From a virus, in the IMG/VR virus record IMGVR_UViG_3300031414_000008, positions 32,001 to 96,000 of that record: 64,000 nt of DNA. One strand, written 5' to 3'. Position 1 is the first letter of the stretch. Every line of letters begins with the position of its first letter. The position numbers and the translations under genes were made by a program. The notes below the pieces were generated by a model. The model had not been told where the DNA came from. It made no database searches and worked only from the letters and a program-made list of their open reading frames with translations. Of this stretch, positions 14,091 to 63,336 are shown in pieces.

Positions 14091-17000
14091 TATGCGTACT
14101 CCCAAATGATGATCACACCTGCACTACCGTTACCTCCTGAGAAGGTCGTGGTGTTACCGTTCTGACCCATCGCCCCGCCACCGCCGGCACCGTACGAGTT
14201 GGTTGAGGCGTTAGTACCACCTCCGGAGTTCGTCGTAGTACCCTTACCGCCTGCACCGAACGGAGACCATGCCCCCATTCCGCCACGAGCGTAAGCCCCG
14301 TACAGAACCCCGTTATTACCGTGTTCGCCATCCAAGCGGGTGAGCATCGTCATGGTTGTCGGAGGTGAAGCGCCCGGTACGACCAGACCACCGTTGATAC
14401 CCGGAGGGGTTTCTGAATAGGCCGTCGTTGTGTTTCCAATGGTAACACTCTGCCCTGCACTACCACCCTGAGCAGTTACGTAACCTGTGATTGCACTGGC
14501 CCCACCTGCACTACCACCAGAGCCTGCCGCTCCGACCACGCAAGTAAGACCTAGCGTTCCCGGTACGTCAATCATGACACGGGCATATGCACCGGCTCCA
14601 CCACCCTGACCTGCCGATACCCCTGAAGCGGAACCGGAAGCAATACCACCTGCACCACCGCCACCGACGACTTCAGCGATGACCTTTTTGGTTAGAGCTA
14701 AGGTAGTTAACGTCGTAGATGCTGTCAGCACTGTCACTCTCAGCAGACCTGATGCCGCCGCTGCCGGAGGTGGGAAGTGCTCTGAGTACAGCTTGTAGTC
14801 AGTTCCGCCAATCTCGACGTACGGATCTTCTGAAGAGTACAGGAACAGACGAGCTGAACCAGAACCCACTTCCATGGCACCGGTTGGCGTCATGTTCAGG
14901 ATATCCTTCCAGCCACCGCCCGGGGTCACTTCCCCACGGATTGCCACGTTGTTCGCCATGACGATAGGGGAATCAACCAGACCCGTTGAGTTCTTCTTGA
15001 TGTAATCCGCCAGATCTGCAGAAACGATCAGCTTGGTCCACGCACCGGTGTTACGACGGTAGTACAGACCACCTTCGGTCGGCATCGCGATCATCGAAGA
15101 GGTGTAGACCGGGTTGTCTGGATCGGTAGCATCAACCTTCGAGATAACGAACACGTCACCCGAGGTCGAGCCCGCCGGAGCATCTGTCACGGCCGTCGCA
15201 GCGCCCTGCTCATCGGTACCCGGTTGGTAACGGAAGAAGCCAGAGCCTACCGCACCTTCAGCCAGAGTTCCCGCATCCACGATCTGAGGGTTCTTCGCGA
15301 TACCGGAAATGTTGTCCACTTCCAGGAACGCAGTCAGCATCTGGTCGATCTCAGCCTTCGAGTAACCGCTGCCGCCAGTGGCGATAGTGATTTCCGTACC
15401 GGTCATTGGCGTGCCGTTGATCTTGAACGTACGCGGAACCAGCGAGGACACATCGATGTCACCCACGCCCAGCGTGATGTTGTTGCTCAGAGGCTTACCG
15501 TTCACGGTACGGGTTACTGGCACACGGTCAGCTACCGCTGCGTCGATCGCCGATTGGTCCAGGGCACCGACGTCCGCTGCCGTCAGAGCGATGTTGTTGT
15601 TCAACGCCTTGCCGTTCACGGTACGGGTTTGCGGAACGAGTCCGGCCACCGCGGTATCGATCGCTGACTGGTCCACTGCACCGACGTCCGCTGCGGAGAT
15701 CGTGATGTTTGAAGACAGTGCCTTACCGTTTACGGTACGGGTGTTCGGCACACGGGCATTCACGAGGTTATCGATCTGGCCAGACGTGTACGTTCCGAGG
15801 TCACCCGGAGACAGGATGATGTCCTTGTCCAGCAGGTATCCGTTGACACGCACAGGGTTGTAACCGCCGGCCACGATCGCAGCAATCTTCGCGTCAATCT
15901 CGGTACGAGAGTACGTGTTCAGATCTGCCGGGGTGAACGTTAAGTCCTTATCCAGCGGTTTGTTGTTGATCGTACGACCTTCCGGAACACGCGTCTCGAG
16001 AAGCTCAGCGGTATCATCAGCGGTATCTTTCGCTGTGTTCGCTGTCTGCTCGACGGCCGTCAGGTCTTCTTTCAGGGTCACGTCCGGGCGGATTACGCCA
16101 CCGGAACCGACTTGCGTTAAGTTGCTCAATGTTCTCTCCAAAATGTCCATTTCTTCGCCTGGGACACCGCGGCGATACATCAGGTAAACCCCGAGACCAC
16201 GCAGGATTTCCCCGGACCAGAAGCCAAAGAACATACTGTTGTTCTTCGTGTTGTTCTCGTTGCCAGTACGAATCGCTGGAGACCAGGAACCGTTCATGAC
16301 GCCGACGTCACCGATGTAGTAGTTGTCGTTCAGCTCTTTGACAGCCTTCTCGATGATCCAATCGAGCTTCGCGATCGGTGAACCACAGAGTGCGGCAAAG
16401 GACAGACCTGCTAACCACAGACCGGTCATGTGTCCGGTGAAGTCATCCGGAACCGGTGTCGGGAGCTCTTCGCTCGGGAAGTCAGTCGGGAACTGACCGT
16501 ACTGCTGTACGTAGCCAATCAGCCACGTTACCCAGTTCTCCACGTACAGAATGAGTTTAGTCGGAACGGTTTTCCCGATCAGGACCATCTCATGCCAAGC
16601 ACGGGCAGCGGACGCGAACGCACGCGGCTGGTAGCCGGCCCACGGGTGACCATCACCCCAGTGGTAGAACGTGAAGGTGTCAGCGGTACCGTACTTAATG
16701 TTGTCCCAACGGTTCCACACGTACGCTGCGGCGCCTGGGCCGAGCACACCGAACTTCTGGAAGTACGCTTGCTGCGAATCATACATGAAGTTAATCATGT
16801 TGTTAAGACGCTCGTCTTCCTTCTCGTGGACGTAGATGAACGGGTGCTGGTAGCCAGGGTACGGCAGACCACGCCATCCGTCGAACTCCACGATCCCTTC
16901 CGTTGCGTTGTTCGAGAACGGGATAACACCCGGGGTGTACGCTAACGGGTTGTAGTTCGGGTTGATCATGTCGCAATCGCCCAGACGCATGGTGAACTCA

Positions 17001-22606: not shown

Positions 22607-23098
22607 ATGATTAACATTACCGAGCAGCTTAAGTATTTGTCCACCCTCGCTCCGAAGCACTTGGAGCTCTACGCAGACGGCGCCTGTAAGGGCAATCCCG
22701 GCCCCGGTGGCTGGGGCGTTCACTTCCACGAATTTGACTACCCCGGGCTGTGTGCCGGTGAGTTAATGACGACCAACAACATCCAGGAGATGCTGGCCAT
22801 GCTGGCGGCCCTGAAAGTCGTTGAGCACTTGGGGTGTACCGCGAACATCTACACTGACTCCAACCTCGTGTACAAAGGCTTAGGCGAATGGCTGCCCGGC
22901 TGGAAGGCTACGAATTTCAAGACTGTAAAGAAAAACCGCGAACTGTGGCAGCAATTGATCCCGCTTTATGATAAACTGGCTTCTCGAATCAGTATCCATA
23001 AAGTCAAGGGCCACTCGGGCAATCCGGGTAATGAAGCTGCAGACGCATTAGCAAACAAGGGCGTAAAAGAATGTTTAATGAAATCAAAGAACGCGTAA
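22607..23098 (+). CDS. rnhA: Ribonuclease HI
   Basis: YADGACKGNPGPGGWG, TNNIQEM, TDS, KVKGHSGNPGNEAADALA. Confidence 0.95.
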   Translation: MINITEQLKYLSTLAPKHLELYADGACKGNPGPGGWGVHFHEFDYPGLCAGELMTTNNIQEMLAMLAALKVVEHLGCTANIYTDSNLVYKGLGEWLPGWKATNFKTVKKNRELWQQLIPLYDKLASRISIHKVKGHSGNPGNEAADALANKGVKECLMKSKNA

Positions 23099-25974
23099 GC
23101 ATTACCGACGCGTACGAAAAGTATTGCCCGGAGGTACCTCTCCGGGAACGCAGTGCCACCGATTTCGTCCCGGACGATGACCAGTGCCCCTGGCACGGTG
23201 GCAGCGGTTCCTTCCACATTGTTTTTGATGAGAAAAACCCCGCGGCCGGTTTCGCTAAGTGTTTCTCTTCTGCGTGTATCCACGAAGAGAGCCCTGCGGA
23301 CGTCATTGAGTTCGTACGCCGTACGCTGAACTTAGAGTCTGCCAAAGAGGCGGCCCTGCGGATTAACGCAGACTTCAAACTCGGTCTGGCCTTCGAGGTG
23401 AGCGTTCTCCAGAAGATTTACTGGGAAGCCCTTGAGTATTACGTCAACGGGATGCTGACGACCAAGCTCTATGAGATTCTCGGGCGTAAGACACCGCTCG
23501 ATTACCAGAAGCAAGACCGCGGTCACCGTGAAGATGCTCTGATGCACTTCCGCGTGGGTTGGTCTGACGGTAAGCTCCACGAGCACCTGAAGATGAAGGA
23601 CTTCGAGTACGATGACATGATCGCCTCCGGGTTGGTCGTTCAGCGTAACGGGAAGTACTACGATAAACTGCCGGGCGAATCCTTCATTTACCCTGCGTTC
23701 GTCAATGGACGACCTTCTCGTTTTACCTTCAAGACGCTGCATACCGGTAAACCGAAGCCGGGCAAAGAGCCTGAGAAGCTGACGTGGCAGATTAAGAAAG
23801 AGTACTGGCTCAATGACGTCGTCATGATGGGTCAGGATTCCCTTAAGGACGCCGAGGATGTTGCGATCGTCGAGGGCGAGAACGACATGATCTCTCTGTA
23901 CGAGATGGGCTGGGAAGGCGCTATCCTGTGCCTGAACGGACAACCGTCGAAGCTGCAGTACGAGTTCATTGCAGAAGCACTCAAGCATAAACGTGTCCAC
24001 ACGTTCTATGACGCGGATGAAGCCGGGGATAAATACCGTCGGAACACGTGGACATGGGCCAAGGGCGAAATCCACCAGTACAAAGTTCCCGAGCAAGACA
24101 ATGACATTGATCTCTACATTCAGCGACGCCGTAACGATGAGCTTAATCCTATTGAGCGTCTGCTTGATGTCGGTGAGGTTCCTCGTCCTGCACGCGATGA
24201 AGCTACTAATGCGGAGCTTAAAGTTACTGGTTCTGGCGAGGTTATCGAAAAAGACGGATGCTACTTTGGCTTCAAGTCTTTCACGTCTGCTACCGGTGAT
24301 ACGAAAGAGACACTGACCCAGCTGACGAACTTCACGTTGAAGATGCGAATCATCTATCTGCACCGTGGAGAGCGTATCCGTGAGATCGAATTCATCCGTA
24401 ACGACGGGTATCGCTCTGGTCCGGTCTTCCTGAACTCGGCTGCCCGCTCCTCCCTGCGTCAGTTCCGTGAGTTCTGCTCGCGTTCCTGTGACGGTATCTT
24501 CCAAGGTTCCGACACTGACCTGAACAACCTGTGGCTGCACATCGCGGCAACTCAGCGTGAGCGTACGGTGATCATCCCTGAATACTGCGGCTACGTCAGC
24601 GAAGTGAACATGTGGATCTTCCGTAACATCATGATTAACAACGCGACCGGTGCAATCTACGAGCCGGACTCCCGGGGTATCTTCTGGATTCAGCCGAACC
24701 AGGGGATTATGCCGCAGTCCATCTCCTCCGATATCTTGAACGATGGGATCAATCAGGACGACGCTATCAACATCCCGATGCTGCTCGATGACATGAAGTC
24801 TCACGACGAATTCATGGAGTATCAAGGCGATGTGTTGCACCGTCTGGCTCAGATTGTCGGGATTCAGGAAGCGTGCACCCTGTTTGCGTGGGCTCAGGCG
24901 AACGCGTTCTCGAACGTCATCTTCCAGTCCCAGAACTTCTTCCCGATGCTCCAGCTCTGGGGCCGTCACGGGAAAGGCAAGACGACGATCCTCCAGTGGC
25001 TCTTGGCGACGTTCGATATGTACGAACACAACAAGGGTTACATGACCGTCTCTGCTCTGGAGAAGTCCACCGTCGGTTTCCAGCGTAAGGTCGAGTACTA
25101 CTCGTCCCTGCCGGTCATCGTCGATGAGCTTCGTGCTGACTTCAAGACCCGTGAGCATTACCCGATGTGGCGTGGCATGTTCAACCGTGCACCGCGTACG
25201 CTCGGGACACCGCGTCAAGGCGTGGTCAAGGTGCAGAAGGTGCGTGGCAACATCGGCTTCGGCGGCCAGGACTCCTTTGCGGATGCGGCAATGCAATCCC
25301 GCTGTGCGTCCCTGAAGACCTCTTCAATGAAGTCTACCGATGCGTCTCAGCGTGCCTACAACTGGTTGTCCGAAGAAGTGGAATATTTCCCACGCTTTGG
25401 CTATCATTGGGTACTGGAGTCCACCCGGACTAACCGTGCTGAGCTCGAGGCAAACTGGGAAGAAATGAAGGCGGTCATCAACGCCAACCTGCCTAAGGGT
25501 TCCGACGTCGGCTCTCGTACGAAAGAAATCTGGAAGGTGCTGGGGTGGTTCGCGATGCGCTTCATGGAGACGTACTTCCCGGGCGAAGAGTACCTGCCGT
25601 GGATGATGAACCAGATCTCCCAGGACGTGGCGATGCAGGAAGAAGTCGATATCGTTAACGAACTGTGGAACAAGATTGCGACCTGTCAGGTTGACCGTCG
25701 TGAGACGATTACGACCGAGCACGTTTGCACTGACGGCACTCACCTCTTCCTGTGGTGGCCTGGCGTGATGGAATCGATCTTCCGCGATATGACCCACTTG
25801 GGCCACGCGAAGTCAACTATCCGTACCGCCGTCACGGACGAAAAGTATTACGTCAAAGAGACGACACACCGTATGGGGCCGGCGAACCACGTCCGTAAGG
25901 TCTTGGCCTTCGACCTCGCTACCGCACCGGAGATCGTTAAGCAGATCGCTCAGGTAGCCAACGAAAACCTTTAA
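23071..25974 (+). CDS. DNA primase fused to P-loop helicase-like domain
   Basis: CPWH..C..C zinc site, VEGEND and YDADEAG (TOPRIM), GRHGKGKTT and IVDE (Walker A/B). Confidence 0.85.
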   Translation: MFNEIKERVSITDAYEKYCPEVPLRERSATDFVPDDDQCPWHGGSGSFHIVFDEKNPAAGFAKCFSSACIHEESPADVIEFVRRTLNLESAKEAALRINADFKLGLAFEVSVLQKIYWEALEYYVNGMLTTKLYEILGRKTPLDYQKQDRGHREDALMHFRVGWSDGKLHEHLKMKDFEYDDMIASGLVVQRNGKYYDKLPGESFIYPAFVNGRPSRFTFKTLHTGKPKPGKEPEKLTWQIKKEYWLNDVVMMGQDSLKDAEDVAIVEGENDMISLYEMGWEGAILCLNGQPSKLQYEFIAEALKHKRVHTFYDADEAGDKYRRNTWTWAKGEIHQYKVPEQDNDIDLYIQRRRNDELNPIERLLDVGEVPRPARDEATNAELKVTGSGEVIEKDGCYFGFKSFTSATGDTKETLTQLTNFTLKMRIIYLHRGERIREIEFIRNDGYRSGPVFLNSAARSSLRQFREFCSRSCDGIFQGSDTDLNNLWLHIAATQRERTVIIPEYCGYVSEVNMWIFRNIMINNATGAIYEPDSRGIFWIQPNQGIMPQSISSDILNDGINQDDAINIPMLLDDMKSHDEFMEYQGDVLHRLAQIVGIQEACTLFAWAQANAFSNVIFQSQNFFPMLQLWGRHGKGKTTILQWLLATFDMYEHNKGYMTVSALEKSTVGFQRKVEYYSSLPVIVDELRADFKTREHYPMWRGMFNRAPRTLGTPRQGVVKVQKVRGNIGFGGQDSFADAAMQSRCASLKTSSMKSTDASQRAYNWLSEEVEYFPRFGYHWVLESTRTNRAELEANWEEMKAVINANLPKGSDVGSRTKEIWKVLGWFAMRFMETYFPGEEYLPWMMNQISQDVAMQEEVDIVNELWNKIATCQVDRRETITTEHVCTDGTHLFLWWPGVMESIFRDMTHLGHAKSTIRTAVTDEKYYVKETTHRMGPANHVRKVLAFDLATAPEIVKQIAQVANENL

Positions 25975-26008
25975 CTAACCGGGCCCTTCGGGGCCCTACG
26001 AGGACTTG

Positions 26009-26626
26009 ATGAAATACACACCGTACATCCCGAAGAAAGCTGTAATGATCGACGCTGAAACGCTCGACAAAATCCCCTCCTCTGTAGTGCTGTCCTTTGC
26101 GGGACTTATTTTTGAGCCGCTAGGATGTAAGCAGCAGCTGGTCGATGCGAACGACCGCGTGATTGCCCCGAACATCAACATCGTGTTCGAATACAGTCAG
26201 GGCCAGGCTCACCGCTCTAAGTCGCCAAGCACGATCAAGTGGTGGTCTGAACAGTCGGCAGAAGCGAAGGCGGGCGTCTTCAGTGATAAGCTGTTGCGTG
26301 TTGACTACGAGACCGCCGTACGTCGTTTCTACGACTGGCTGGCGTGGGCGAAGTCTGAAGGTGCCGAGGCGATTTACGCGTGCTCCCCTCGCTTTGACGT
26401 CGGTATCCTCGAAGATATGGTCCAGGACGTGTACGGTAAGGACGAGAAAGGTGAGTACTACACGCTGCCGATCCCGTTCTACACCGAGCACGACGTGCGG
26501 TCGATCCGCAACTTCGTTTTCGGTAAGAAAAAGATCGACTGGGGCGTGAAGCACGAAGCGCTGGGTGACTGTGTCCGTCAGTCCCTGGAAATGCAGGAGG
26601 CCTATGCATGGCGGAACTCACTGTAA
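26009..26626 (+). CDS. DEDDh 3'-5' exonuclease (DexA-like)
   Basis: IDAETL, RFDVGIL, HEALGDCVRQ. Confidence 0.85.
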   Translation: MKYTPYIPKKAVMIDAETLDKIPSSVVLSFAGLIFEPLGCKQQLVDANDRVIAPNINIVFEYSQGQAHRSKSPSTIKWWSEQSAEAKAGVFSDKLLRVDYETAVRRFYDWLAWAKSEGAEAIYACSPRFDVGILEDMVQDVYGKDEKGEYYTLPIPFYTEHDVRSIRNFVFGKKKIDWGVKHEALGDCVRQSLEMQEAYAWRNSL

Positions 26627-29896: not shown

Positions 29897-29914
29897 ATAA
29901 CGGCTGATCCACGT

Positions 29915-29932
29915 GGTATAAGAGAAGTGTAA
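29915..29932 (+). promoter_or_regulatory. Phage promoter motif
   Basis: ggtataag agaagt gtaa. Confidence 0.7.
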
Positions 29933-29952
29933 ACCTAATAGGGGAAAATCTT

Positions 29953-30060: not shown

Positions 30061-30110
30061 TCGGTTCACGGGGCCTCACTTCCTTGGACCCCGTTTTTTA
30101 GCCCGGTTCT

Positions 30111-30118
30111 GGTATAAG
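30111..30118 (+). promoter_or_regulatory. Phage promoter motif core
   Basis: tggtataag before AAGGAG SD. Confidence 0.65.
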
Positions 30119-30144
30119 AGAAGTATCAACCAAAGGAGAATTCA

Positions 30145-31381: not shown

Positions 31382-31403
31382 AGCCCACTTCGGTGGGCTT
31401 TTT
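31382..31403 (+). terminator. Intrinsic terminator
   Basis: agcccac-ttcg-gtgggct-tttt. Confidence 0.85.
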
Positions 31404-31420
31404 CATACCTGTTTTTCACC

Positions 31421-31634
31421 CCTCCGTTACACCAAAAGTTACACACAAACCCTTACGCCATGCGGCTTTCAGAGCATCCAAACGTTGTAACCTTTCAAAC
31501 GTCACCCTAAGACATCTATAGGTAGAGTCCTACTATATATATTACGAATGTCTTTTTTTAAAAAATAAATAATATATGGACCCTAGGGAGCTATGGGGCT
31601 GTGTTGAGGTGAGTTTGTATGGTTACAACGTTTG
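31421..31634. repeat. Non-coding AT-rich element, copy 1 (candidate origin or cis-site)
   Basis: Collinear with 63123-63336; IR CAAACGTTGTAAC 31479-31491 / GTTACAACGTTTG 31622-31634. Confidence 0.9.
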
Positions 31635-31703: not shown

Positions 31704-31711
31704 GGTATAAC
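31704..31711 (+). promoter_or_regulatory. Phage promoter motif variant
   Basis: tggtataac upstream of 31762. Confidence 0.5.
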
Positions 31712-42522: not shown

Positions 42523-42659
42523 TCAATCGGAGGGCCAAGGATGGCCCAATGAGTAATATACTGCTCATTAATGGCCAAAAGTGCTATTATTGTGTAGTAT
42601 ATTGCTCATTATCTTTTTAGGTCTATAAGCACCGCTAATCATTAAAAAGGGGTCCTTTG

Positions 42660-42677
42660 GGTATAAGTAAGGTGTAA
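42660..42677 (+). promoter_or_regulatory. Phage promoter motif
   Basis: ggtataag taaggt gtaa. Confidence 0.7.
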
Positions 42678-42698
42678 ACCACACAAGGACTTTTGATC

Positions 42699-56515: not shown

Positions 56516-57394
56516 ATGATGGAACTCACCCTTAAGAAACCTGAACTTCGCGTCTTCTATTGCTCTGATCTGCACTCTGACTTCTGGAAATACAGCGTCG
56601 CCCCGTTCTTCGACCGTGTGTCTGCGGAGGACTACGACCTCTTCATTTTCGCCGGCGACGTCGGGGAGTGGGTGGATGATAACTGCCGGGAAATCTACGA
56701 GTGCATCCTTGCCCACGGTAAACCAATCCTGATGGTGCCCGGGAACCACGAGTTCTACCGCGGGGAGTACCACAAAGTGATGGACGAACTGGGCAAGTTC
56801 GCTGAAGACAACCCGCTCTTTTACCTCCTTGAGGACAACTTCGTCGACCTGACCGAGCAGAAGATTCGCGTGTGGGGCTCGACGTTCTGGACTGACTTCC
56901 AGGGTGACCCGCTGGCGATCTCCGTGGCGAAGCGTCGCATGAACGATTACCGTCAGATCTACTTCCAGCGTCCGTCAGGTGGTGTGCTGCTCGAGCCGGA
57001 GGATACGGTCGTGATGAATGACCGGGCCCGCACCTCCCTCGTGGAACAGTCTAAGGACCTGCCGGAGGGTTGGCGTCTCGTGGTCGTGACCCATCACGCT
57101 CCGTTCCGAGAGTCGACACCGAAGCAATACCGGATGCCGGAATACATGGAAGGCGCCAAGATGAACAAGGCGTACTCCAACGACCTCTACGACTGGTGTG
57201 AACGCAAGGGTGTCTACCCGGAGCTCTGGATTCACGGGCACATCCATGATCGGGCGAACTATACCGTCGAATGGGATAACGGGAAGGCGTGCACCGTGCA
57301 GTCCAACCCGTTCGGGTATCCGGGCGAACAGAACCATGATGCGATCAAAAAGCACTTCCTGACGTTCTCAAAGAATGGCGTAACGGTGGTATAA
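56516..57394 (+). CDS. Calcineurin-like metallophosphoesterase
   Basis: SDLH, AGD, PGNHE, THHAP, HGHIH. Confidence 0.92.
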   Translation: MMELTLKKPELRVFYCSDLHSDFWKYSVAPFFDRVSAEDYDLFIFAGDVGEWVDDNCREIYECILAHGKPILMVPGNHEFYRGEYHKVMDELGKFAEDNPLFYLLEDNFVDLTEQKIRVWGSTFWTDFQGDPLAISVAKRRMNDYRQIYFQRPSGGVLLEPEDTVVMNDRARTSLVEQSKDLPEGWRLVVVTHHAPFRESTPKQYRMPEYMEGAKMNKAYSNDLYDWCERKGVYPELWIHGHIHDRANYTVEWDNGKACTVQSNPFGYPGEQNHDAIKKHFLTFSKNGVTVV

Positions 57395-57405
57395 GTAAGT
57401 TGTAA
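57388..57405 (+). promoter_or_regulatory. Phage promoter motif
   Basis: ggtataag taagtt gtaa. Confidence 0.7.
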
Positions 57406-57422
57406 ACCACAGGAGAAACATC

Positions 57423-60145: not shown

Positions 60146-60161
60146 TATCTTGGAGGTACTT

Positions 60162-61010
60162 ATGATTCCCTATCAACCTGAAGATCTACGAGCGGTCAAT
60201 TTCCATGGCCGTCTCATCTATGTATTGAAGTACCCCGACTGGGAAGAAGAGGCTGTGGTCATCAACCACATCATTGACCAGCTCGGGCTTGGCCACCAGA
60301 AAGAAGACTTACTGTATCAAACCATCTACGACACAAAGTTCCTGACTCAGGTCGTGCACGTGGAAGATCAGGGTACCACCCATGAGCTCGTCGTCGTGCC
60401 GATCACGAAGCTCAACGCGTGGCTGTTCTCACTAAGACTCCAGAAGGATGTCCAACAGATGTGGTTCACCCAAGAGGTGATCACGGAAGATGGCGAGATT
60501 CAGGAGGACCGTGTGAACGTCCTGGAGAACCTGAAACGTTATCAATCTGAGTGTTGTGCCGTGCTGTATTCATATTGGCACAACGGCATGGCGATTAACC
60601 CTAATGCCGGGCAACCGTTCGCGGGGCTCACGAGTCTGTGGCGGGCGGCACGGGTTAACCGGGAGAAAGTGCTGGCGGTATTCTCAGAGTACGCAGAGCA
60701 ACAGGGCGAGGATTACTCGATCAAAACCCTGCGATACGGCGTTAATAACCTGCTCTGTGAGTTCTTCCCACAGTCGCTCGTGATCAAACCTGAGGATTCT
60801 CAGGATGGCTTCGCACTGTATCGTCTGGCTCTGGCCGAAGACTATATCGCACGGTATCTCAACCAAGCGATAGAAGACCAGCTGTCTCCGACGCAGGTTA
60901 TCAGCACGCTGGACACCGATATGATCGCAGCCTTCCACAAGATCGCCGCCGGCTTACTCGAGGCAGTGAACGAGTGGAGCCTGTCAATACCTGGCCAAAA
61001 GCCGGTATAA
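60162..61010 (+). CDS. P22 antirepressor N-terminal-domain protein
   Basis: VNFHG..IIDQLGL..VPITKLNAWLFS..RYQSECCAVLYSYW..G.AINP. Confidence 0.8.
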   Translation: MIPYQPEDLRAVNFHGRLIYVLKYPDWEEEAVVINHIIDQLGLGHQKEDLLYQTIYDTKFLTQVVHVEDQGTTHELVVVPITKLNAWLFSLRLQKDVQQMWFTQEVITEDGEIQEDRVNVLENLKRYQSECCAVLYSYWHNGMAINPNAGQPFAGLTSLWRAARVNREKVLAVFSEYAEQQGEDYSIKTLRYGVNNLLCEFFPQSLVIKPEDSQDGFALYRLALAEDYIARYLNQAIEDQLSPTQVISTLDTDMIAAFHKIAAGLLEAVNEWSLSIPGQKPV

Positions 61011-61021
61011 GAGTTATGTAA
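61004..61021 (+). promoter_or_regulatory. Phage promoter motif
   Basis: ggtataag agttat gtaa. Confidence 0.7.
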
Positions 61022-61064
61022 GGGGACACTGTCGTCCCCTAATTTTTTCAACCAAGGAGACATC

Positions 61065-61841
61065 ATGTCTGTTCATTTCCTTCTGCAACAAATCCACAAA
61101 GTAAACGTTCTGGGCACCACTGTAGCTGTTCTGGTCGACGACAAGGGTAACCCGACGGTAGCCCTGCAGACTATCGTTGACGCGATTGGCCTGCCGTTCG
61201 GTCCTGAATTCGATCGCCTGAAAGCGGACCGTCGCTTCGGTGCTCAGCGCCTGACCGTACGTACCAACCAGGGCGAAACCATCGATGAAGTGGTGCTGCC
61301 GCTGACCAAACTGCACGCCTTCCTGTTCACCGTTGACTCCTCTCAGATCGACGCCGTGGCCGCCGCCCGTCTGGAACTCTTCCAGTTGGAGTGCGTGGAC
61401 GTGCTGAACGACTACTGGAACAAAGGCGTGGCGCTGAACCTGCGTCAGGAGATGGGTAACACTGAAGCGGTTAACTACCGTGACGCCCGTAAGCTGTCCC
61501 GTCCGGCTCTGGTCGAAGCAGTGAAACGTCTGTGCTCCTACGCGACAGCGTCCGGCGTGACTCTGGACGAAGACGATGCGTATCACTCTCTGATCTGCTT
61601 CTGCTGGGACCGTCTGGGTCGTGGCCCGATGAAGGCGGAAACCGAAGAAGTCGACACCAAGTTCTACGGTTACGACTCTTACCTGCTGGCCGCTATGGAG
61701 CGCTCTGCGGTGCGTCTGATCGACCTGGTTATCCAGGAAGAGCAGCCGGTTGGCGAAGTTCTGCAGTATCTGCACGAGCAGATCGAGAATGACCTGGCTA
61801 AGATCGGTGAGCGTGCGTTCGAAGTGCTGGAAGCGAAATAA
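61065..61841 (+). CDS. P22 antirepressor N-terminal-domain protein
   Basis: VALQTIVDAIGL..LPLTKLHAFLFTV..FQLECVDVLNDYWNKG. Confidence 0.82.
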   Translation: MSVHFLLQQIHKVNVLGTTVAVLVDDKGNPTVALQTIVDAIGLPFGPEFDRLKADRRFGAQRLTVRTNQGETIDEVVLPLTKLHAFLFTVDSSQIDAVAAARLELFQLECVDVLNDYWNKGVALNLRQEMGNTEAVNYRDARKLSRPALVEAVKRLCSYATASGVTLDEDDAYHSLICFCWDRLGRGPMKAETEEVDTKFYGYDSYLLAAMERSAVRLIDLVIQEEQPVGEVLQYLHEQIENDLAKIGERAFEVLEAK

Positions 61842-61847
61842 TACACT

Positions 61848-61873
61848 GGGAGCGGCCTTCGGGTCGCTCCCTT
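61848..61873 (+). terminator. UUCG hairpin / terminator
   Basis: gggagcggcc-ttcg-ggtcgctccc-tt. Confidence 0.6.
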
Positions 61874-61904
61874 CCGAAACATGAGTTTTACATTTGGAGT
61901 TTGT

Positions 61905-62690
61905 ATGAAGCAGATCGATTTCTACGGTGATAAATTGGATGTAGTGGACATGGAGGATGGTAAGCCTGGTGTCGCTATGCGTCGCCTTGTCGAAAATCTC
62001 GGACTGGACTGGAAAACACAGCACCGCAAGCTTGAAGACCCGATATATTCGTGTGGTCATATGACCACGCACGACAGTAGTGGCAGAGAGCAGGAAATGT
62101 TAGTGATGCCGGTTAAGTCCATCCCTGCATACCTCTTCTCTATCAATCCGAAAAAGGTTCGTGAAGATCTGCAAGAGAAGCTGGCCTTATATCGTTTGGA
62201 GTGTGTGGACGTTCTGTATAACTACTGGGCTAAAGGATATGCGGTCAACCCTCGTGTCTCTATCGAAGACAACATGATGAGCTTCTACCACACGTCAGGT
62301 GAGTTGGCGGCAGACTTTATGCAGAACATGCTGGATCATACTGCAGAGACGCCTGCTCAGAACGAAATCATCGGCCGCATCATCGGGCATATCCTGACGG
62401 AAGCTTTACGAGCAGAAGATCTCGACTTGCAGAAAAACATCCTGACTCGTGAAGGCAAGACTCGCTATCTGACTCGTACAGAGATGGCTGTAATCTCGGT
62501 TCTGGAGCTTGAGATCGGTGCATGGATCGGCCGAAACCGTAAGCTTCCTCAGAGTGAAATGGAAGTGATGGGGATGGTGAAGGATGTAAGTCTGTTGGCA
62601 GATAACTTAGTGTCAGATGCCCGCTTCATTCTGCGTAGCTACACTGAACGTTTTGATAAGCCACTGAGCTGTTTCTTGGCGAAAGTGTAA
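61905..62690 (+). CDS. P22 antirepressor N-terminal-domain protein
   Basis: IDFYGD..VAMRRLVENLGLDW.TQ.RKL..YLFSINP.KV..YRLECVDVLYNYW.KG.AVNPR. Confidence 0.88.
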   Translation: MKQIDFYGDKLDVVDMEDGKPGVAMRRLVENLGLDWKTQHRKLEDPIYSCGHMTTHDSSGREQEMLVMPVKSIPAYLFSINPKKVREDLQEKLALYRLECVDVLYNYWAKGYAVNPRVSIEDNMMSFYHTSGELAADFMQNMLDHTAETPAQNEIIGRIIGHILTEALRAEDLDLQKNILTREGKTRYLTRTEMAVISVLELEIGAWIGRNRKLPQSEMEVMGMVKDVSLLADNLVSDARFILRSYTERFDKPLSCFLAKV

Positions 62691-62732: not shown

Positions 62733-63008
62733 TTAAGCGTTGACTGCAGACTTGAAGCCGCGGCCGCTACGGAAGTGCGGAGCCTTACGAGCTTCGATCA
62801 CCAGTGCGTCGCCGGTCTGCGGGTTGCGACCATTACGCTCTGCACGATCACGGCTGGAGAAGGTACCAAAACCGGTGATGCCAACAGTTTCACCTGCAGC
62901 AACCTGACCGACGATACCGTCGAACAGAGCGTTCGCTACCTGAGCAACGCGGGTTTTTGGCAGTTCCAGTTCTTCAGCTACTTTTGCAATCAGTTCGGAC
63001 TTATTCAT
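62733..63008 (-). CDS. hup: HU-family DNA-binding protein
   Basis: MNKSELI..GFGTF..RAERNGRNPQTG..I..P.FR.G..FK. Confidence 0.95.
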   Translation of the reverse strand: MNKSELIAKVAEELELPKTRVAQVANALFDGIVGQVAAGETVGITGFGTFSSRDRAERNGRNPQTGDALVIEARKAPHFRSGRGFKSAVNA

Positions 63009-63122: not shown

Positions 63123-63336
63123 CCTCCGTTACACCAAAAGTTACAGAAAAACCCTTGTGTATCAAGGCTTTGAGGCGATTCAAACGTTGTAACTTTTGAA
63201 ACGTCACCCTAAGACATCTATAGGTAGAGTCCTACTATATATATTACGAATGTCTTTTTTAACAAATAAATAATATAGGGAGTCTATAGGGGCTATAGGG
63301 CTGTCTTGAGGTGGGTTTGAACGGTTACAACGTTTG
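63123..63336. repeat. Non-coding AT-rich element, copy 2
   Basis: Offset 31702 from copy 1; IR at 63181-63193 / 63324-63336. Confidence 0.9.

What the first reader, a model, noticed from the sequence alone, without database searches (positions are those of the whole stretch)
31421..31634. Duplicated 214-bp non-coding element with fixed geometry: candidate multiple replication origins or genome-handling sites (copy 1; copy 2 at 63123-63336)
Seen: two direct-orientation copies 31,702 bp apart. Each has an identical 23-mer with two GTTACA motifs (CCTCCGTTACACCAAAAGTTACA) and a perfect 13-bp inverted pair CAAACGTTGTAAC...GTTACAACGTTTG spanning exactly 156 bp, with compensating 1-bp indels inside. 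Each also has a 62-bp identical core (31497-31558 = 63199-63260) containing AAGACAT/ATGTCTT arms, a GTAG-AGTC-CTAC hairpin and a TATATATATTA run, followed by an A/T tract. Flanks diverge, so this is selection on structure rather than an assembly duplicate. Inference: iteron + IR + unwinding-element layout of an origin; alternatives are resolution, packaging or injection-stop sites.
Basis: partly seen in the sequence, partly recalled or inferred. Interest (0 to 1): 0.85.

Follow-up and report, generated by a model that had tools for sequence, protein, structure and literature searches.

The report
Regularly spaced origin-like phage repeats
A 214-bp non-coding DNA module sits five times, about every 36.5 kb and on one strand, around this 182-kb phage genome (2-5 times in its relatives); it pairs protein-site arrays with the genome's most easily melted DNA, so it most likely marks several replication start sites, a layout I found no description of for phages.

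Summary
The window lies in a 182.6-kb Arash-like myovirus genome that carries five same-strand copies, with gaps of 31.7-40.4 kb (P about 3e-4 for such evenness).

Three close relatives (Salmonella phage Arash, G004, G005) keep five copies at the same gene positions. Seven more distant relatives (portal 43-61% identical, including Vibrio phage D69) carry 2-5 homologous or analogous copies, always spread out.

The architecture is the same in every lineage. Inverted arrays of a short, lineage-specific motif (GTTACA here) and a GC hairpin flank an AT-rich core. That core is the least stable duplex of the whole genome in most lineages.

Copies are homogenised within each genome. One copy always lies inside the replication-gene module. 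The element is absent from about 185,000 prokaryote genomes, has no Rfam match and no conserved internal RNA fold.

Best reading (about 0.5): multiple replication origins, analogous to baculovirus hrs and HSV oriS/oriL. Function is untested: no initiator was identified and there is no skew signal.

This scan had already noted the same element in G004, and analogous evenly spaced repeats in other viruses.

The parts
31383..31403 (+). Upstream intrinsic-terminator-like hairpin plus T5 that ends the preceding + strand gene, just before copy 1
   Evidence: Read directly from the sequence. Comparable hairpin + T-run flanks precede 3 of the 5 copies.
31421..31634 (+). Element copy 1 (genome 63421-63634): whole 214-bp module
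31426..31443 (+). Direct pair of GTTACA motifs, 12-bp period (31426-31431 and 31438-31443)
   Evidence: The pair is conserved in Arash, G004, Vibrio phage D69 and G018.
31447..31469 (.). GC hairpin / small palindrome (AAACCC, variable loop, GGCTTT). It is deeply conserved across lineages. On the minus strand it reads as a weak terminator.
   Evidence: The minus-strand terminator call was made for copy 2.
31479..31523 (+). Left arm. It starts with the 13-bp terminal inverted repeat and holds further half-sites.
   Evidence: 34-36 of 45 positions identical to the reverse complement of the right arm.
31517..31576 (.). AT-rich core, among the five least stable 60-bp duplex windows of the whole genome (z 5.6)
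31532..31561 (-). Sigma-70-like promoter match on the minus strand inside the core (9 of 12, -10 box TATAGT). Speculative start of a short leftward RNA.
   Evidence: the same match occurs in copy 2. The direction test across lineages was inconclusive.
31590..31634 (+). Right arm, ending with the 13-bp terminal inverted repeat (31622-31634)
31704..31710 (+). Regular phage promoter core GGTATAA, 70 bp downstream of copy 1. It serves the next gene and is not part of the element.
63123..63336 (+). Element copy 2 (genome 95123-95336): whole module
63128..63145 (+). GTTACA direct pair of copy 2
63149..63171 (.). GC hairpin of copy 2. The scan calls it a minus-strand terminator at 63167-63153 plus a T-rich tail.
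63181..63225 (+). Left arm of copy 2
63218..63277 (.). AT-rich core of copy 2 (rank 5 least stable window in the genome, z 5.3)
63292..63336 (+). Right arm of copy 2
62733..63008 (-). Phage HU-like gene transcribed away from copy 2. Context only: a possible accessory DNA-bending factor.
   Evidence: Pfam Bac_DNA_binding, E 9.5e-29.

Best explanation
The element is one of five copies of a cis-acting DNA site that most likely serves as a replication origin.

Proposed mechanism:
1. A phage-encoded sequence-specific protein, not yet identified, binds the GTTACA direct pair and the inverted half-site arrays in the two arms. In this lineage its specificity is GTTACA/TGTAAC.
2. Binding, possibly helped by the phage HU, stresses the 55-60-bp AT-rich core between the arms. 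That core is the most easily melted DNA in the genome.
3. The bubble is primed either directly by the phage Toprim primase, or by a short RNA started in the core and trimmed by the phage RNase HI, as at T4 oriF.
4. Five such sites divide the 182-kb genome into roughly equal 36.5-kb replicons.
5. Recombination among the copies keeps them identical within a genome.

Shown: existence, copy number, spacing, architecture, duplex instability, conservation, synteny and concerted evolution.

Inferred: protein binding, melting, priming, and origin activity itself.
For: - **Architecture:** the layout is that of an iteron origin. Repeated short motifs in direct and inverted sets flank an AT-rich core.
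- **Duplex stability:** the five cores are exactly ranks 1-5 of least stable 60-bp windows in G000, Arash and G005. The copies are also the top 5, 4 and 3 in G010, G013 and G014.
- **Co-evolving motif:** the motif changes between lineages in both arms at once (GTTACA, GATACG, TGTGTC, TGTCCA, TGCTACA) while the layout stays. This is what one expects of a co-evolving phage-encoded binder.
- **Replication-module copy:** one copy lies between the primase-ligase block and the DNA polymerase gene in every lineage examined.
- **Spacing:** the copies are regularly spread in all 11 genomes (min/mean gap 0.60-0.93), although copies were gained and lost (slot F).
- **Insulation:** the element sits between an upstream terminator and a downstream regular promoter, so it is shielded from read-through.
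- **Not RNA, coding or mobile:** there is no Rfam hit, no conserved internal fold and no copy in prokaryote genomes.
- **Accessory genes:** the phage encodes RNase HI, a Toprim primase and HU.
- **Precedents:** dispersed homologous AT-rich palindromic regions act as origins in baculoviruses (PMC4535591), and T4 uses at least five origins built from a promoter plus an AT-rich unwinding element (PMC3016281).
Against: - No origin activity has been measured and no sequencing or transcript data could be used.
- No initiator-like protein (DnaA, Rep, O-like, SF3) was recognised near the copies or in the replication block.
- There are no DnaA boxes.
- Cumulative GC skew shows no inflection at the copies. 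A GC3-skew test of bidirectional forks over 10 genomes is null (P 0.80; AT3 marginal at 0.046).
- AT-rich cores flanked by binding-site arrays also occur at packaging sites and at some promoters or enhancers.
- The one-strand polarity of the Arash-like clade is not needed by a bidirectional origin.
Confidence: 0.5

Rival explanations
1. The elements are DNA-level cis sites with a function other than replication. A phage protein would use them as docking sites to organise, anchor, package, resolve or eject the genome (loop anchors, multiple pac-like sites, injection pause sites or site-specific nick sites), and the spacing itself would be the functional trait.
For: - Regular spacing in all 11 genomes, kept through gain and loss of copies.
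- Strict one-strand polarity in the Arash-like clade, whatever the orientation of local genes.
- Binding-site arrays and a neighbouring HU gene.
- No skew signal for origins.
Against: - Polarity is not kept in the more palindromic lineages.
- No copy is consistently next to the terminase gene. In G000 the terminase lies at 160.8-162.4 kb and the nearest copy at 169.8 kb.
- Extreme duplex instability has no obvious role in anchoring.
- The one universal copy sits in the replication module.
Confidence: 0.2
2. The elements are transcription cassettes. Outward-facing promoters in the AT core would give short RNAs ending at the flanking hairpins (regulatory sRNAs), or the element would act as an enhancer or entry site for the phage RNA polymerase.
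For: - A minus-strand sigma-70-like promoter is found in both window copies, and the -10 box TATAGT recurs in G000, G005 and D69.
- The hairpin reads as a minus-strand terminator in copy 2.
- Baculovirus hrs are also enhancers.
- A melted AT core would suit an RNA polymerase.
Against: - No Rfam family matches.
- No conserved RNA fold exists beyond the terminal repeats, and single changes there are not compensated.
- The spacing between the -35-like and -10-like parts is not conserved, and the direction test is inconclusive.
- The phage's regular promoter motif (41 copies on the + strand) is absent from the element.
- Regular genome-wide spacing is not expected for sRNA genes.
Confidence: 0.15
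3. The element is a selfish non-autonomous mobile element (MITE-like, or associated with homing endonucleases) with no function for the phage.
For: - Terminal inverted repeats, an AT-rich interior, no coding capacity and a variable copy number (2-5).
- Copies are identical within a genome.
- HNH/homing endonuclease genes abut two of the three D69 copies.
Against: - The five positions are syntenic in four genomes whose cores differ, so the identity comes from gene conversion, not recent jumps.
- Spacing is regular, not random.
- All copies are on one strand in the Arash-like clade.
- No target-site duplication is visible at the borders (alignment).
- Conservation extends 58 bp beyond the left inverted repeat.
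- The composite pattern has no copy in about 185,000 prokaryote genomes.
Confidence: 0.08

Closest known systems
Baculovirus homologous regions (hrs), e.g. SpltNPV-II Sphr1-7 (PMC4535591)
   Same: Several dispersed, mutually homologous, AT-rich non-coding regions built on imperfect palindromes in a large dsDNA virus genome. In baculoviruses they are shown to act as origins in plasmid assays. That hrs are more alike within a genome than between viruses is from my own knowledge; for the phage elements it is shown.
   Different: There is no sequence homology. Hrs are tandem arrays of 3-8 repeat units, whereas each copy here is a single unit. Hrs are also enhancers bound by IE-1; no binder or enhancer role is known here. 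The host is bacterial and the virus is a tailed phage.
Herpes simplex virus oriS/oriL
   Same: A palindromic origin with an AT-rich centre flanked by inverted binding sites for a virus-encoded origin-binding protein, present in more than one copy per genome and often between divergent genes.
   Different: There is no homology. No UL9-like SF2 origin-binding helicase was identified here. The present elements also carry an extra direct motif pair and a GC hairpin.
Bacteriophage T4 origins oriA, C, E, F, G (PMC3016281)
   Same: A roughly 170-kb myovirus using at least five origins. oriF and oriG are about 100 bp, made of a promoter plus an AT-rich unwinding element, with an R-loop RNA as primer. 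Here there is an AT-rich core, a possible internal promoter, and a phage RNase HI.
   Different: T4 origins share no sequence motif with each other, whereas these are homologous copies kept identical. No MotA-type promoter or regular phage promoter lies inside the element. Regular spacing is not a T4 feature.
Iteron-type origins (phage lambda ori, plasmid R6K/P1/F origins; T4 oriE iterons)
   Same: Arrays of short repeats next to an AT-rich unwinding region, with repeat specificity that co-varies with an element-encoded initiator.
   Different: Those origins are single-copy, usually lie in or beside the initiator gene, and often carry DnaA boxes. Here there are 2-5 copies, no recognisable initiator gene and no DnaA boxes.
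ori/rep elements of yeast mitochondrial DNA
   Same: Seven or eight dispersed homologous elements of about 280 bp, with GC clusters forming a hairpin around AT stretches and an adjacent promoter. They are linked to both replication initiation and recombination.
   Different: An organelle genome, no homology, and copies in both orientations without regular spacing.

Membership tests
Replication origin (iteron + DNA-unwinding-element type) | AT-rich, easily melted unwinding element | tested here: met
   The cores are ranks 1-5 of least stable 60-bp windows in G000, Arash and G005, and the top ranks in G010, G013 and G014.
Replication origin (iteron + DNA-unwinding-element type) | Repeated initiator-binding motifs next to the unwinding element | tested here: inconclusive
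   Motif arrays flank the core and co-vary by lineage. Binding by any protein was not tested.
Replication origin (iteron + DNA-unwinding-element type) | A cognate initiator protein | tested here: inconclusive
   No DnaA, Rep, O-like or SF3 family was found among the flanking or replication-block proteins. Only KilA-N, P22_AR_N and HU DNA-binding domains were seen. The divergence screen was not decisive.
Replication origin (iteron + DNA-unwinding-element type) | Initiation of DNA synthesis at the site | not testable with these tools
   Public sequencing runs could not be queried.
Replication origin (iteron + DNA-unwinding-element type) | Strand compositional asymmetry switching at the site | tested here: not met
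   There is no inflection in cumulative GC skew. The GC3 test is null, P 0.80. This feature is weak or absent in many phages, so it is not decisive.
T4-type R-loop origin | A promoter reading into the unwinding element | tested here: inconclusive
   Only a 9-of-12 sigma-70-like match on the minus strand, reading out of the core. The regular phage promoter is absent from the element.
Baculovirus-hr-like dispersed homologous regions (analogy, not homology) | Several dispersed homologous AT-rich palindromic regions, homogenised within a genome | tested here: met
Structured non-coding RNA gene | A conserved secondary structure with compensatory changes, or a known family match | tested here: not met
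   No Rfam match. RNAalifold finds only the terminal repeat pairing, and within-lineage changes there are uncompensated.
MITE / non-autonomous transposon | Target-site duplications and non-syntenic, random insertions | tested here: not met
   Positions are syntenic, spacing is regular, no duplication is seen at the borders, and there are no copies in prokaryote genomes.
pac/cos packaging site | A single site close to the terminase genes that defines the virion DNA ends | tested here: not met
   There are 2-5 copies, and in G000 the nearest copy is 7.4 kb from the terminase gene. Virion ends could not be mapped.

The most novel reading that the evidence does not exclude
The elements are genome-architecture sites. 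A co-evolving phage protein would clamp them to divide the chromosome into 2-5 equal domains, and the spacing itself would be the selected trait through gains and losses of copies. Replication initiation would be only one output of that organisation, or none. This would be a chromosome-partitioning principle not described for tailed phages.
Probability: 0.15. Interest if true: 0.9.

Novelty: new variant of a known kind. Interest (0 to 1): 0.75.

Why it matters
Replication origins are unknown for most large phages. Even in T4, the multiple origins share no recognisable sequence.

Here a whole group of 150-190-kb phages carries an easily recognised, homologous and regularly spaced set of candidate origins. 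The group includes the cultured Salmonella phage Arash and Vibrio phages D69, D148 and D181. The binding motif differs by lineage.

That makes several questions directly testable in a tractable phage-host pair:
- how a large phage genome is divided into replicons;
- whether origin spacing is under selection;
- how dispersed cis elements and their binding protein co-evolve and are homogenised.

It also gives a bacterial-virus counterpart to baculovirus hrs. The uniform test used here (a self-similar dispersed repeat that is also the least stable duplex) could be applied to other uncultured phages.

Tried and rejected
- **Short-motif scans:** scanning the viral collection with 14-15-nt motifs gave mostly chance hits. 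Only the composite pattern was specific.
- **phiKZ-type early promoter:** I recalled TATATTAC as a phiKZ-type early promoter but could not confirm it. Here the motif occurs only 3 times outside the elements. The 41-copy GGTATAA motif fits the early-promoter description instead.
- **Wrong-strand alignment:** the first Arash alignment used the wrong strand and was redone.
- **Late promoter:** a late-promoter motif could not be derived from my crude ORF map.
- **Promoter direction:** the sigma-70-like promoter direction test was inconclusive.
- **Binder screen:** the screen for a protein conserved between G000 and Arash but diverged in G005 gave too many small candidates.
- **Primase-helicase:** Pfam and PDB sequence searches showed only a Toprim domain.
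- **Skew:** the GC and GC3 skew tests were null.
- **Host factors:** DnaA-box and IHF-site searches found nothing consistent.

Full report
**1. Observation**

Both copies are exactly as described.
- The 23-mer carrying two GTTACA motifs is identical in the two copies.
- The 13-bp inverted pair spans 156 bp in each copy, with two compensating 1-bp indels inside.
- The run 31497-31558 equals 63199-63260 and is the longest identical run.
- The sub-motifs occur nowhere else in the genome. The 13-mer is found 10 times, all inside elements, against about 0 expected.

**2. Genome context**

The window is bases 32001-96000 of a 182,632-bp virus record. Its "terminal repeat" is only a 127-bp overlap, which looks like a circular assembly closure.

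The whole genome holds five copies, all on the + strand, at 26.2, 63.4, 95.1, 135.6 and 169.8 kb. On the circle the gaps are 37.2, 31.7, 40.4, 34.2 and 39.0 kb. Five random points are this even with P about 3e-4. The value is the same when placement is restricted to the 39 intergenic gaps of at least 150 bp.

The only deposited close relative is Salmonella phage Arash. It is an "orphan" myovirus with a virion-packaged multisubunit RNA polymerase. Its paper does not mention these repeats.

**3. Close relatives: synteny and concerted evolution**

Arash has five copies on one strand, with gaps of 33.8-39.7 kb. G004 (182.6 kb) also has five.

G005 (172 kb, primase 74% identical) gives no blastn match to our element. 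Its own self-comparison nevertheless finds five same-strand copies, with gaps of 31.1-37.7 kb. Their architecture is the same, but the terminal inverted repeat has a different sequence in both arms.

Flanking sequences and orthologous neighbours show that the five positions are the same in all four genomes.

The core is identical among the copies within each genome but differs between genomes, even between G000 and G004. That is concerted evolution, not recent transposition.

**4. Anatomy (copy 1)**

In order along the + strand:
- a terminator of the upstream gene;
- a direct GTTACA pair;
- a GC hairpin with a variable loop;
- a left arm of about 45 bp;
- an AT-rich core;
- a right arm that is the imperfect inverse of the left (34-36 of 45 positions);
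- after 68-90 bp, in 3 of the 5 copies, a regular phage promoter.

The regular promoter motif (GGTATAA with an upstream CCAATAA box) occurs 42 times, 41 of them on the + strand. It is absent from the element. [quoted passage not shown]

RNAalifold on 21 copies supports only the pairing of the terminal repeats. It finds 13 pairs, 7 of them with changes on both sides, and all those changes come from the G005 lineage. Single changes within a lineage are not compensated. The G005 arms are degenerate half-sites rather than a strict palindrome. This fits symmetric protein-binding sites better than a selected RNA or cruciform stem. As single-stranded DNA the unit would still fold strongly (z -6.4).

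There is no Rfam match.

**5. Duplex stability**

I used nearest-neighbour energies in 60-bp windows. The five elements are exactly ranks 1-5 of least stable DNA in G000 (z 5.3-5.8; the next site has z 4.4). The same holds in Arash and in the sequence-diverged G005.

**6. The wider phage group**

The portal protein has many relatives at 41-61% identity on contigs of 145-190 kb, including Vibrio phages D69, D148 and D181.

D69 carries three copies of a palindromic element of about 340-390 bp, with gaps of 57.8, 60.2 and 68.8 kb. It is recognisably homologous to ours. It has the same GTTACAC pair, a GC hairpin, similar arm motifs, and a core sharing blocks with the Arash core.

One uniform pipeline (self-BLAST families plus stability ranks) gave these results:

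| Genome | Copies | Rank among least stable sites |
|---|---|---|
| G010 | 5 | top 5 |
| G013 | 4 | top 4 |
| G014 | 3 | top 3 |
| G011 | 3 | ranks 1, 2, 4 |
| G018 | 4 | two copies at ranks 1 and 3 |
| G012 | 2 | two extreme sites |

Every lineage has the same layout but its own short motif.

The minimum-to-mean gap ratio is 0.60-0.93 in all 11 genomes. Per-genome P values run from 2e-5 to 0.09. Fisher's combination over 8 lineages gives 3e-8, but this assumes independence and so overstates significance. Some contigs are classed as linear, so their wrap-around gaps are approximate.

**7. Slots**

Orthologue mapping shows one slot occupied in every lineage examined. It lies between the primase-ligase block and the DNA polymerase gene, and in G000 it holds copy 1. 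The mapping was run on nine relatives plus G000. G004 is included because its flank matches G000's.

The other four Arash-type slots are present in only some lineages. A sixth slot is occupied in D69, G011 and G018 but empty in the Arash-like clade.

Copies have therefore been gained and lost while the set stayed spread out. That suggests spacing is under selection.

The best-match orientation is mixed in the more palindromic lineages. Strict one-strand polarity is thus a feature of the Arash-like clade only.

**8. Tests of rival readings**

- **Mobile element:** the composite pattern has no copy in about 185,000 prokaryote genomes, positions are syntenic, and no target duplication is visible.
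- **RNA gene:** see section 4. A minus-strand sigma-70-like promoter in the core and a minus-strand terminator reading of the hairpin allow a short leftward RNA. Promoter geometry is not conserved, and the direction test is inconclusive.
- **Host-factor origin:** there are no DnaA boxes and no consistent IHF sites.
- **Skew:** there is no signal. This neither supports nor excludes origins in a phage likely to use recombination-dependent replication.
- **Initiator:** none was recognised. Neighbouring genes encode HU, three P22_AR_N paralogs, a KilA-N protein and DUF3307. The replication block has a Toprim primase, RNase HI, a 3'-5' exoribonuclease, a ligase and a split family-A polymerase.

**9. 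Interpretation**

The elements combine six properties:
- arrays of a co-evolving short motif in inverted sets;
- the least stable duplex of the genome between them;
- transcriptional insulation;
- a universal copy within the replication genes;
- regular spacing;
- homogenisation among copies.

This combination is best explained by multiple replication origins recognised by a phage-encoded protein (confidence about 0.5).

The closest analogues are baculovirus hrs (PMC4535591), HSV oriS/oriL, and T4's multiple promoter-plus-unwinding-element origins (PMC3016281). None is homologous.

Other DNA-level roles (about 0.2), transcription cassettes (about 0.15) and a selfish element (about 0.08) remain possible.

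I found no phage literature describing such elements.

Earlier notes of this scan flagged the same element in this genome and in G004. They also flagged analogous evenly spaced repeats in other viruses. I treated them as leads only.

Noticed in passing
whole genome; e.g. window 29914-29938, 30110-30134, 31704-31710, 42659-42683, 57387-57411: The regular phage promoter motif GGTATAA(G), with a CCAATAA box about 13 bp upstream and a GTGTAAAC-like box downstream, occurs 42 times, 41 of them on the + strand. It is probably the early promoter of the phage-encoded RNA polymerase. The three copies just downstream of elements form a GGTATAAC subclass.
   Followed up: partly
window 60150-62690 (+): Three tandem paralogous genes with a P22_AR_N (Ant/Bro-N-like DNA-binding) domain lie next to the HU gene and element copy 2. 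They are possible sequence-specific DNA binders.
   Followed up: partly
the five element copies (window 31421-31634, 63123-63336 and three outside the window): None of the five elements contains GATC, although the genome average would give about 1.6 per 214 bp (about 8 in total).
   Followed up: no
window 22607-26626 (+): A true RNase HI (PF00075), a 967-aa Toprim primase whose C-terminal 600 residues match no family, and an Rv2179c-like 3'-5' exoribonuclease lie together. This looks like an RNA-primer handling block.
   Followed up: partly
L286 and L288 (Vibrio phage D69, 65922-67355 and 185661-186284): HNH/homing endonuclease genes directly abut two of the three D69 element copies. In G000 and Arash an endonuclease gene lies about 1.1 kb from the RNR-adjacent copy.
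   Followed up: no
genome ends (G000 and G005): The "direct terminal repeat" is exactly 127 bp in both records, which looks like an assembler overlap. The G005 contig starts right at an element copy, so these repeats may break assemblies.
   Followed up: partly
window 15451-15678: A tandem duplication of a 114-nt unit (71% identity) lies inside a minus-strand region. It was not examined.
   Followed up: no
genome 98001-98480 (outside the window): The homologue of Arash gp109c ("DNA binding protein") evolves faster than the genome average: 67% identity to Arash, and the Arash protein is only 50% identical to its G005 homologue. It lies about 2.7 kb downstream of the HU-adjacent element copy.
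   Followed up: partly
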